64,000 nucleotides of DNA, taken from positions 85,684,001 to 85,748,000 of the forward strand of contig OX597814.1 in NCBI GenBank assembly GCA_951406725.2, given 5' to 3'. A program made the translations under genes and the position numbers. This DNA comes from Octopus vulgaris. Taxonomy: Eukaryota. The notes below the pieces were generated by a model. It did no database searches. It worked only from the letters and a program-made list of their open reading frames with translations, and was not told where the DNA came from. Of the stretch, positions 22,009 through 24,033 are shown in pieces (position 1 is the first letter of the stretch; each line of letters starts with the position of its first letter).

Positions 22009-22288
22009 TGTCTGTGAGTGTGTGTGTCTGTGTTTGTCCACCCAACATCGCTTGGCATCCGACGCTGGTGTGTTTACGTCACCGTAATTTAGCGGTTCGA
22101 CAAAAAGAGACCGATGATATAAGCACTAGGCTTACAAAGAATAAGTCCTGGAGTTGATATATAATATATATCGCGTCTCATGTTTGATCTTTGATCTCTG
22201 CCCGAAATCAGATCGCCATGTTGATTCGTTAGTTACTGCACGCATTTTTTTTCTCTCCTTCTTTCTGTGTTTTTTTTCTCTCTGTGTA

Positions 22289-22326
22289 TCTTTCTGTTGA
22301 AGAGCGTAGGCTCGAAACGTTAAAGA
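22289..22326 (+). ncRNA. Minimal type I hammerhead-like motif in PLE pLTR tail (22170-22426)
   Basis: TCTTT-CTGTTGA-A-GAGC(GTAG)GCTC-GAAAC-GTT-AAAGA; stems I and II pair; palindromic AACGTT stem III; A6>U core deviation. Confidence 0.65.
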
Positions 22327-22424
22327 CTTGTTTTATTTATATTTCCTGAGCGCCATACTAATACAATTGTTTGTTTGTTTCCCACCTGCCTTCGTCTTTT
22401 GTCTATTTTCATAAAGCTTCCCGT

Positions 22425-22456
<32 letters not shown>

Positions 22457-22682
22457 TTAATCAATATAGGGTGGCAAAAAAAATTTTGTAGAATTTTTTT
22501 GCCACCAGCGGCCTAGTGGGAAAAAATTAAATAGTCATAGACTATTTTTAAGTTCAACATCAACAATCAAGGAACGGCCATAATAGGCCATTCACCCACT
22601 AGAAATAACAGCCAAAGCTTCAACCGCAAATAAAAATTAATTCCGTAAACCAGGAGAAAATTTAAAAAACATTTAACCTGTA

Positions 22683-22789
22683 ATTTCTTATACGATGCAC
22701 CGTTTCATCTGCTGATTAATGGTAAACTAACCTGATTAAATTAAATCAAGCCAATCTTCCATAGGCCCTCAGATTCTTCAGTAAGAAAT
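22683..22789 (-). ncRNA. Type I hammerhead ribozyme, copy 1
   Basis: Reverse complement of 23267-23373. Confidence 0.88.
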
Positions 22790-23266
22790 AGCCCAAGTCG
22801 GAACAGATATTTTCACGAGGCATTTCCGACCTTGCCAAGGTTATATCTGACCTAAAATTTTCAAATCGTCGCACTCGCGCCAAATTTATCGGCAGCAAAT
22901 AAATATAAGCCGTCGATTCCATTACGGAATTAACCAGAAAATTCATAATTAATCAATATAGGGTGGCAAAAAAAATTTTGTAGAATTTTTTTGCCACTAG
23001 CGGCCTAGTGGGAAAAAATTAAATAGTCATAGACTATTTTTAAGTTCAACATCAGCAATCAAGGAACGGCCATATATTGATTAATTATGCCACCCTATAT
23101 TGATTAATTATGAATTTTCTGGTTAATTCCGTAATGGAATCGACGGCTTATATTTATTTGCTGCCGATAAATTTGGCGCGAGTGCGACGATTTGAAAATT
23201 TTAGGTCAGATATAACCTTGGCAAGGTCGGAAATGCCTCGTGAAAATATCTGTTCCGACTTGGGCT

Positions 23267-23373
23267 ATTTCTTACTGAAGAATCTGAGGGCCTATGGAAG
23301 ATTGGCTTGATTTAATTTAATCAGGTTAGTTTACCATTAATCAGCAGATGAAACGGTGCATCGTATAAGAAAT
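23267..23373 (+). ncRNA. Type I hammerhead ribozyme, copy 2; predicted cleavage after GUA at 23365
   Basis: Stem I ATTTCTTA/TAAGAAAT, core CTGAAGA, stem II ATCTG/CAGAT with internal hairpin, GAAA, stem III ACGG(TGCA)TCGT, GTA site. Confidence 0.9.
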
Positions 23374-23756
23374 TACAGGGTAAATGTTTTTTAAATTTTC
23401 TCCTGGTTTACGGAATTAATTTTTATTTGCGGTTGAAGCTTTGGCTGTTATTTCTAGTGGGTGAATGGCCTATTATGGCCGTTCCTTGATTGTTGATGTT
23501 GAACTTAAAAATAGTCTATGACTATTTAATTTTTTCCCACTAGGCCGCTGGTGGCAAAAAATTCTACAAAATTTTTTTGCCACCCTATATTGATTAATTA
23601 TGAATTTTCTGGTTAATTCCGTAATGGAATCGACGGCTTATATTTATTTGCTGCCGATAAATTTGGCGCGAGTGCGACGATTTGAAAATTTTAGGTCAGA
23701 TATAACCTTGGCAAGGTCGGAAATGCCTCGTGAAAATATCTGTTCCGACTTGGGCT

Positions 23757-23863
23757 ATTTCTTACTGAAGAATCTGAGGGCCTATGGAAGATTGGCTTGA
23801 TTTAATTTAATCAGGTTAGTTTACCATTAATCAGCAGATGAAACGGTGCATCGTATAAGAAAT
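23757..23863 (+). ncRNA. Type I hammerhead ribozyme, copy 3; predicted cleavage after 23855
   Basis: Identical to copy 2, shifted by 490 bp. Confidence 0.9.
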
Positions 23864-23983
23864 TACAGGGTAAATGTTTTTTAAATTTTCTCCTGGTTTA
23901 CGGAATTAATTTTTATTTGCGGTTGAAGCTTTGGCTGTTATTTCTAGTGGGTGAATGGCCTATTATGGCCGTTCCTTGATTGT

Positions 23984-24033
<50 letters not shown>

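What the first reader, a model, noticed from the sequence alone, without database searches (positions are those of the whole stretch)
23050..23987. Junction geometry fits twin-primed reverse transcription of a multimeric or circular template
Seen: the plus arm ends at ..TATGGCCGTTCCTTGATTGTTGAT|ATAT, and the minus arm begins at TATGGCCGTTCC (23074), so the arms join into a continuous ~3-mer with ~24-nt overlap. Both outer ends merge into (TA)n through AT microhomology, and a short templated piece TATTGATTAATTA sits at the inversion point. Established: twin priming gives this geometry for LINE-1. Inference: both cut (TA)n strands primed cDNA, each running more than one unit and through HHR cleavage sites, as expected for a circular RNA template.
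Basis: partly seen in the sequence, partly recalled or inferred. Interest (0 to 1): 0.75.

Follow-up and report, generated by a model that had tools for sequence, protein, structure and literature searches.

The report
Two-armed retrozyme insertion, Penelope-type priming
This is one of hundreds of copies of a small non-coding jumping repeat with a predicted self-cutting RNA motif, which sits in TA microsatellites as two back-to-back arms ending at two fixed points; it was likely written by a Penelope-type enzyme from one RNA, often probably a circle, and not by LINE-1-style twin priming.

Summary
Two head-to-head arms (900 and 621 nt) of a 490-nt hammerhead unit sit in (TA)n, with a 13-nt templated insert and a 23/24-nt overlap. 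In 100 of 140 family loci the arms are head-to-head, and their outer ends are fixed near unit positions 132 and 236. The inner ends scatter, and 'continuity' occurs in 11 of 92 simple loci against 9.6 expected, so the 24-nt overlap is chance-level. This is the Penelope footprint (inverted copy, 'tail', two internal start sites; PMC8557442, PMC11167929), not LINE-1 twin priming. Both arms usually share one haplotype (542 variant calls fixed in both arms, 4 in one). Arms either both stop at the first ribozyme cut or both cross it (64 of 73). Three loci show two-unit alternation. This favours one RNA per insertion: a cleaved linear monomer or a circle. A long linear multimer is not excluded, no partner element was found, and no RNA circle was observed. 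This scan noted the same picture before, apparently for this family (e1-8672458, e1-8672319).

The parts
22425..22453 (.). (TA)n target tract, left side
22454..23074 (-). Arm B: 621 nt, unit 109-490 then 1-235; outer (primed) end at the fixed 'long' site, about unit 236
   Evidence: long-end junction pattern has 681 exact matches in G000, control 0
22683..22789 (-). Type I hammerhead motif in arm B, predicted cut at 22691
23051..23074 (-).
23075..23087 (+). Locally templated insert at the inversion point (unit 223-235; 221-236 with flanking homology)
   Evidence: 12 of 15 inserts of 10 nt or more in the family have an exact local template of 8 nt or more
23088..23987 (+). Arm A: 900 nt, unit 213-490, 1-490, 1-132; outer (primed) end at the fixed 'short' site, unit 132
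   Evidence: short-end junction pattern has 238 exact matches in G000, control 0
23267..23373 (+). Type I hammerhead motif 1 (8-bp stem I, CUGAAGA core, long stem II, 3-bp stem III), predicted cut after 23365
23366..23855 (+). One full 490-nt unit, cut site to cut site (predicted RNA monomer or circle); longest reading frame 68 codons
23498..23601 (+). 104-nt 'tail' between the two fixed start sites; holds the hairpin 23550-23584
   Evidence: z -3.9; hairpin pair probabilities 0.65-1.0
23757..23863 (+). Type I hammerhead motif 2, predicted cut after 23855
23988..24031 (.). (TA)n target tract, right side

Best explanation
The insert is a copy of a non-coding 490-nt hammerhead repeat (non-LTR retrozyme) whose two back-to-back arms end at two fixed unit positions, and it was likely made by a Penelope-type RT-endonuclease that nicked both strands of (TA)n and primed cDNA at two fixed internal sites of one RNA. 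Shown: geometry, fixed ends, (TA)n target, shared haplotype of the arms, concordant stopping or crossing at the ribozyme site. Inferred: (1) each nicked strand starts cDNA at one site (unit 132 or about 236); (2) the downstream cDNA displaces the upstream one, so both copy the same sequence; (3) on a ribozyme-cleaved linear monomer both run off its 5' end, giving short palindromes; (4) on a ligated circle (monomer, sometimes dimer) both roll on and fall off at random, giving multimer arms like this locus; (5) the two cDNA ends are joined by microhomology-type end joining with locally templated inserts (Pol theta-like; label recalled).
For: Fixed ends: 75 of 75 TA-abutting ends in 40 loci not chosen by their ends fall at 112-132 or 229-240. 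One short plus one long end, head-to-head: 100 of 140 loci (30/40, 43/60, 27/40). The same geometry with a 35-40-nt tail appears in 3 of 20 autonomous RT + GIY-YIG loci of this genome (L205, L207, L212). An anole PLE cuts and extends both strands and starts at two internal RNA sites that define the tail (PMC11167929). One template: own arms differ at a mean of 1.2 sites against 5.0 for arms of other same-subfamily loci (51 loci); 542 variant calls fixed in both arms against 4 in one arm; 35 of the 542 occur in at most 2 loci. Two template classes: of 73 end-anchored simple loci, both arms cross the ribozyme site in 40, neither in 24, one in 9 (p 5e-11). Stops at the first site are 34 of 123 arms, at later sites 8 of 61, background 0.09 per window. 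Circle signs: 309 of 313 crossed junctions have no indel; two-unit alternation of rare variants in L159 (two sites, four passes), L033 (both arms in phase) and L043. Core ribozyme bases are nearly invariant in about 72-78 loci except the two positions known to be free (numbering recalled).
Against: No autonomous partner was found: no similarity to the unit in 48 distinct GIY-YIG places, apart from one separate insertion in L172. No circle was observed; contigs cannot show one. The tail is 104 nt, against 30-40 nt in described PLEs. Some loci have arm-specific alleles (L041, L043, L075, L145), which points to two templates or later conversion. At the fourth ribozyme site 3 of 6 arms stop, as linear cleaved multimers would. 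Two-unit alternation is seen in only 3 loci among 42 arms with three or more passes, and a DNA-level duplication could mimic it. Gene conversion inside a palindrome could also make arms alike. 40 of 140 loci were not scored as short+long pairs (single arms, very short or decayed partner arms, complex loci, one array longer than the stretch fetched).
Confidence: 0.7

Rival explanations
1. Same two-site Penelope-type priming, but the multimer arms are copied from long linear tandem transcripts of existing arrays, with no circle.
For: Uncleaved RNA was the main substrate in vitro for the anole PLE (PMC11167929). Multimeric RNAs exist in axolotl (PMC7229834). L126 has one 15-nt junction deletion in pass 0 of arm A and pass 3 of arm B, which needs a template of four or more units or conversion. 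3 of 6 arms stop at the fourth site.
Against: Linear copying can only shorten arrays, yet arms reach 9 uniform units (L041). Rare variants are fixed in all passes of both arms in 11 loci, 10 of which also carry unhomogenised single-copy mutations. Second and third sites show no excess stops (5 of 42, 0 of 13). Two-unit alternation occurs in three loci.
Confidence: 0.17
2. Fold-back or self-priming: only one strand primes, and the cDNA then copies itself to make the inverted arm.
For: Self-priming was proposed for PLE inverted repeats (PMC3846280). Inner ends are symmetric (within 12 nt) in 11 of 52 loci outside the ribozyme-end class against 2.7 expected, p 5e-5.
Against: The short-end arm is the longer arm in 27 of 92 loci, including this one (900 vs 621 nt), so it cannot be a copy of the other arm. 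Run-off from one RNA end explains most symmetric cases too. It may hold for a minority.
Confidence: 0.06
3. LINE-1-type twin priming on one continuous template, the second primer landing where the first cDNA had reached.
For: Orientation fits. The 24-nt overlap is real here. This locus, L141 and L159 are continuous in both directions (3 of 92 against about 1 expected, Fisher p 0.07).
Against: Continuity is 11 of 92 against 9.6 expected, and 6 of 60 against 6.2 among long-end arms that crossed the ribozyme site. The second priming site is fixed. In 22 of 24 non-crossing loci the long-end arm runs more than 30 nt past the short site. There is no poly(A) end.
Confidence: 0.04
4. Inversion at DNA level after insertion, or a long-read fold-back assembly artefact.
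For: The junction was not bridged in four independent runs (uninformative). One locus (L032) looks rearranged after insertion.
Against: Neither process would put a fixed unit position next to (TA)n at both outer ends in 100 loci, each with its own junction. The arms here are unequal and differ at 3 substitutions and 4 one-base homopolymer gaps. Both (TA)n junction types also appear as loose ends in contigs of other runs.
Confidence: 0.03

Closest known systems
Metazoan non-LTR retrozymes (Cervera and de la Pena 2020, PMC7229834: passages and Discussion read; Li, Clavereau and Pollet 2026, 10.64898/2026.07.22.740005: part 1 of 5 and passages read)
   Same: Non-coding tandem units with one type I hammerhead each. 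The authors propose circular RNA templates that give tandem cDNA, with PLEs as likely drivers.
   Different: Unit is 490 nt (about 300-390 in those examples). 'Inverted' and 'target site' had 0 hits in PMC7229834, so the two-armed, two-fixed-end insertion form and the genomic circle signs are not described in what I read. Its Supplementary Figure S9 was not seen.
Endonuclease-bearing Penelope-like elements (Craig 2021, PMC8557442, passages; Arkhipova 2013, PMC3846280, passages; Frangieh 2024, PMC11167929, parts 1-2 of 4)
   Same: Inverted 5'-truncated copy joined head-to-head, tail at one end only, microsatellite targets, two internal start sites, both strands cut and extended.
   Different: No ORF here; tail is 104 nt rather than 30-40; both arms are multimers of a single unit; no sequence link to a specific autonomous family was found.
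LINE-1 twin priming (as described in PMC12016303, passages; Ostertag and Kazazian 2001 seen only as a reference)
   Same: Two cDNAs from the two target strands, joined head-to-head with microhomology.
   Different: L1 uses poly(A) plus a variable internal site and gives near-contiguous arms in about a fifth of insertions. Here both sites are fixed, the arms overlap by hundreds of bases and about 70% of sampled loci are inverted.

Membership tests
Metazoan non-LTR retrozyme | Type I hammerhead motif in every unit | tested here: met
   Three motifs in this locus; conserved core across about 72-78 loci; active fold costs 1.5 kcal/mol over the circle's minimum. Rfam gave no match at gathering score.
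Metazoan non-LTR retrozyme | Dispersed tandem units, no protein, no LTR structure | tested here: met
   longest frame 68 codons.
Metazoan non-LTR retrozyme | Transcribed | tested here: inconclusive
   The unit is covered in 4 of 4 runs that are only guessed to be RNA, with no silent control laid.
Metazoan non-LTR retrozyme | Self-cleavage and circular RNA | not testable with these tools
   Only indirect genomic signs. The end-to-start joint in 3 of 4 runs also exists in tandem DNA.
Penelope-type insertion footprint | Inverted 5'-truncated copy, head-to-head | tested here: met
   100 of 140 loci.
Penelope-type insertion footprint | Tail at one end only (two start sites) | tested here: met
   Partner ends: 45 of 47 long in short-anchored loci; 28 of 29 short-class in long-anchored loci. 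Tail is 104 nt, longer than the described 30-40.
Penelope-type insertion footprint | Microsatellite target | tested here: met
   238 and 681 exact end-to-(TA)n junctions.
Autonomous Penelope-like element | RT plus GIY-YIG ORF | tested here: not met
   None in the insert; such ORFs exist elsewhere in G000.
Non-autonomous derivative of a named PLE family | Sequence shared with that family's pLTR | tested here: inconclusive
   None in 48 distinct places, out of 6136 candidates of which 150 were scored.
LINE-1 twin priming | One cDNA primed at a poly(A) 3' end, the other at a variable internal site | tested here: not met
   Both ends are fixed and internal; no poly(A).
LINE-1 twin priming | Arms nearly contiguous on the template | tested here: not met
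   11 of 92 vs 9.6 expected; median 280 positions shared.
LINE-1 twin priming | Target-site duplication | not testable with these tools
   Hidden in (TA)n; no empty allele obtained.

The most novel reading that the evidence does not exclude
A Penelope-type RT performs double-primed rolling-circle reverse transcription of ribozyme-made RNA circles (monomers and dimers) straight into germline chromosomes. The genome records the state of each template: short palindromes from cleaved linear RNA, multimer arms from circles, two-unit alternation from dimer circles. This would be genomic evidence for the proposed but unshown circle-to-genome step of animal retrozymes, and a model for how PLE inversions and tails arise.
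Probability: 0.6. Interest if true: 0.75.

Novelty: new member of a known kind. Interest (0 to 1): 0.5.

Why it matters
How animal retrozymes get back into the genome, and how Penelope elements make their inverted, tailed insertions, are both stated as open in the papers read (PMC7229834 Discussion; PMC8557442). This family gives hundreds of young insertions with two mapped start sites and a built-in split between linear and likely circular templates, so a direct in vitro test can be designed. The element class, the footprint and the circle hypothesis are all published, and this scan reached a similar reading on other windows. The added value here is the set of quantitative tests and the correction of the LINE-1 analogy.

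Tried and rejected
Continuity of the arms as a family rule: rejected. I first suspected stop hot spots just upstream of both start sites; among 122 arms that crossed the ribozyme site the inner ends are roughly even over the unit. Pairing of the two start sites into one stem: seen only in a local fold (probability about 0.3) and absent in the full circle and monomer; dropped. L153 looked like two-unit alternation, but its two variant passes carry different alleles; dropped. RNA-editing signature in locus-private fixed variants (lead from e1-8662707): A>G 10 vs T>C 6 and A>T 7 vs T>A 1 among 41 variants, too few to call. Parent-daughter sign (single-copy variant in one locus, fixed in another): 1 case, uninformative. 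Autonomous partner: not found; one family look-up failed. Independent check of the junction: no piece spanned it, and the one raw-read run laid nothing. No RNA holder was listed on record. The empty allele was not tested. Rfam: no match. Paper searches: 'Penelope + twin priming + hammerhead' gave 0 papers; 'retrozyme + cephalopod' gave only PMC8557442; searches listed no paper on this insertion form. Subscription journals are mostly not covered, and the supplements of PMC11167929, PMC7229834 and the 2026 preprint were not seen and may bear on novelty.

Full report
Observation. The insert spans 22454-23987 between two (TA)n tracts. It is built from a 490-nt unit. I number the unit from the base after the predicted hammerhead cut (window 23366 = unit 1). 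The plus arm (23088-23987, 900 nt) runs unit 213 to 490, 1 to 490, 1 to 132. The minus arm (23074 down to 22454, 621 nt) runs unit 109 to 490, 1 to 235. The end of the plus arm and the start of the minus arm match at 23 of 24 bases, so they can be written as 3.05 continuous units. The 13-nt insert at the centre copies unit 223-235 from 10 nt into the plus arm.

The ribozyme. Each unit has one type I hammerhead motif: an 8-bp stem I, a CUGAAGA core, a long stem II, GAAA, a 3-bp stem III and a GUA cut triplet. It is on the strand that reads outward in both arms. Across about 72-78 loci the core is nearly invariant, except the variable core position and the base at the cut, which is A or C and never G. 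That suggests selection for activity (inference). Rfam has no match at its threshold. The unit codes for nothing longer than 68 codons.

The family. G000 holds 238 exact junctions of unit 132 to (TA)n and 681 of unit 236 to (TA)n, with 0 for the reversed controls. I examined 140 loci. Set 1 is the 40 best-scoring places, including the window, and is biased to long arrays. Set 2 is 60 of the 61 not yet held short-end matches on C1-C5. Set 3 is 40 of the 43 not yet held long-end matches on C1. One short and one long end, head-to-head, occur in 30 of 40, 43 of 60 and 27 of 40 loci. Eight complex loci were set aside, leaving 92 simple ones. Adding back the 12 set-1 loci that belong to the end-anchored census gives 112 loci, 80 paired and 73 simple.

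The ends are fixed and the continuity is chance. In set 1, which was not chosen by its ends, all 75 TA-abutting ends fall in two classes, 39 near unit 132 and 36 near 236. The inner ends scatter. The long-end arm starts within -20 to +30 nt of the short end in 11 of 92 loci, against 9.6 expected. The arms share a median of 280 unit positions. In L1 twin priming the second site is variable and overlaps have a median of 12 bp (PMC12016303). So the 24-nt overlap carries no weight. One residue remains: this locus, L141 and L159 are continuous in both directions (p 0.07).

This is the Penelope footprint. PLE insertions have an inverted 5'-truncated copy, a 30-40-bp tail at one end and a microsatellite bias (PMC8557442; PMC3846280). 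A purified anole PLE cuts and extends both strands and starts at two internal RNA sites that define the tail (PMC11167929). G000 has many RT + GIY-YIG ORFs. Three of 20 such loci show an inverted piece with one short and one tailed end in (TA)n. The 781-aa family has a cysteine motif before the endonuclease, as described for Neptune elements; I built no tree. None of 48 distinct GIY-YIG places shares sequence with the unit, apart from one separate insertion. The driver is therefore inferred from geometry only.

One RNA per insertion. Divergence is 0.32% between passes within an arm, 0.37% between the arms of a locus and 2.0% (median) between loci. 542 variant calls are fixed in both arms and 4 in one arm only; 15 are mosaic. 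In 51 loci with 200 or more shared sites, own arms differ at a mean of 1.2 sites and foreign same-subfamily arms at 5.0; 8% of foreign arms are as close. L041, L043, L075 and L145 are exceptions. Conversion within palindromes cannot be excluded, but single-copy mutations persist in 10 of the 11 loci that have rare variants fixed in both arms.

Linear or circular. In the 73-locus census both arms cross the ribozyme site in 40 loci, neither in 24 and one in 9 (p 5e-11). Arms stop at the first site in 34 of 123 cases. At later sites they stop in 5 of 42, 0 of 13 and 3 of 6, against a background of 0.09; first versus later p 0.04. So one class ran off a cleaved 5' end, which also implies cleavage in vivo, and another class met no end. 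309 of 313 crossed junctions have no indel. Rare variants alternate with a two-unit period in L159 (two sites), L033 (in phase in both arms) and L043, as a dimer circle would give. Against this: these are 3 loci among 42 arms with three or more passes, the 3 of 6 stops at the fourth site, and L126, which needs a template of four or more units or conversion. This locus has both arms across the site and longer than a unit (20 of 73 are so), which places it in the likely circular class. Its own few differences are private and say nothing more.

Junction. Of 92 centres, 42 have microhomology, 7 are blunt and 43 have inserts; 12 of 15 inserts of 10 nt or more have a local template. This fits polymerase-theta-type joining (recalled, not tested). 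Inner ends are symmetric in 11 of 52 loci outside the ribozyme-end class, against 2.7 expected; run-off from one RNA end or fold-back could both give that. Fold-back cannot explain this locus, where the short-end arm is the longer one.

Independent data. The family is present in contigs of several public runs, with both kinds of (TA)n end in runs guessed to be RNA. No piece bridged this junction, so the locus itself rests on the assembly.

Verdict. A real, young retrozyme insertion with the Penelope two-site footprint. The class, the footprint and the circle idea are published (PMC7229834; 10.64898/2026.07.22.740005). I found no paper that describes this insertion form for retrozymes. Earlier notes of this scan reach the same reading; my reading was recorded before I saw them, and they are not independent support.

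Noticed in passing
window 22171-22424: The left flank is the end of another repeated element (matches in L055, L111, L120, L124, L208) with a hammerhead-like motif near 22290-22330. It ends in the (TA)n that took this insertion.
   Followed up: partly
L058, about 2375-2432: The retrozyme sits in the (TA)n directly behind the 40-nt tail of the 781-aa PLE family.
   Followed up: no
G000; L200-L211: A young PLE family with many open 781-aa RT + GIY-YIG frames and a degenerate hammerhead-like motif in its pLTR; a candidate driver, but no sequence link to the unit.
   Followed up: partly
L126: The same 15-nt deletion at the ribozyme cut occurs in one pass of each arm, suggesting an imprecisely joined multimer template.
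   Followed up: partly
L032: A 4.8-kb complex locus with internal (TA)n pieces and three short ends; it looks duplicated after insertion.
   Followed up: no
L047; G000:C7:21996345-21997029: Rare exceptions to the short+long rule: a long+long pair (L047) and an apparent short+short pair (seen only in the listing).
   Followed up: no
L084, L087, L090, L098, L099, L104, L106, L116: Long-end arms stop repeatedly at unit 22-23, at a T-run just inside the ribozyme cut, followed by iterated A/T templated inserts.
   Followed up: no
41 locus-private fixed variants: A>T outnumbers T>A 7 to 1 on the RNA strand, possibly misreading of a modified adenosine; small numbers.
   Followed up: partly
window 22041-22158 and at least 8 other places in the window: A very common short repeat of about 118 nt, probably a SINE.
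   Followed up: no
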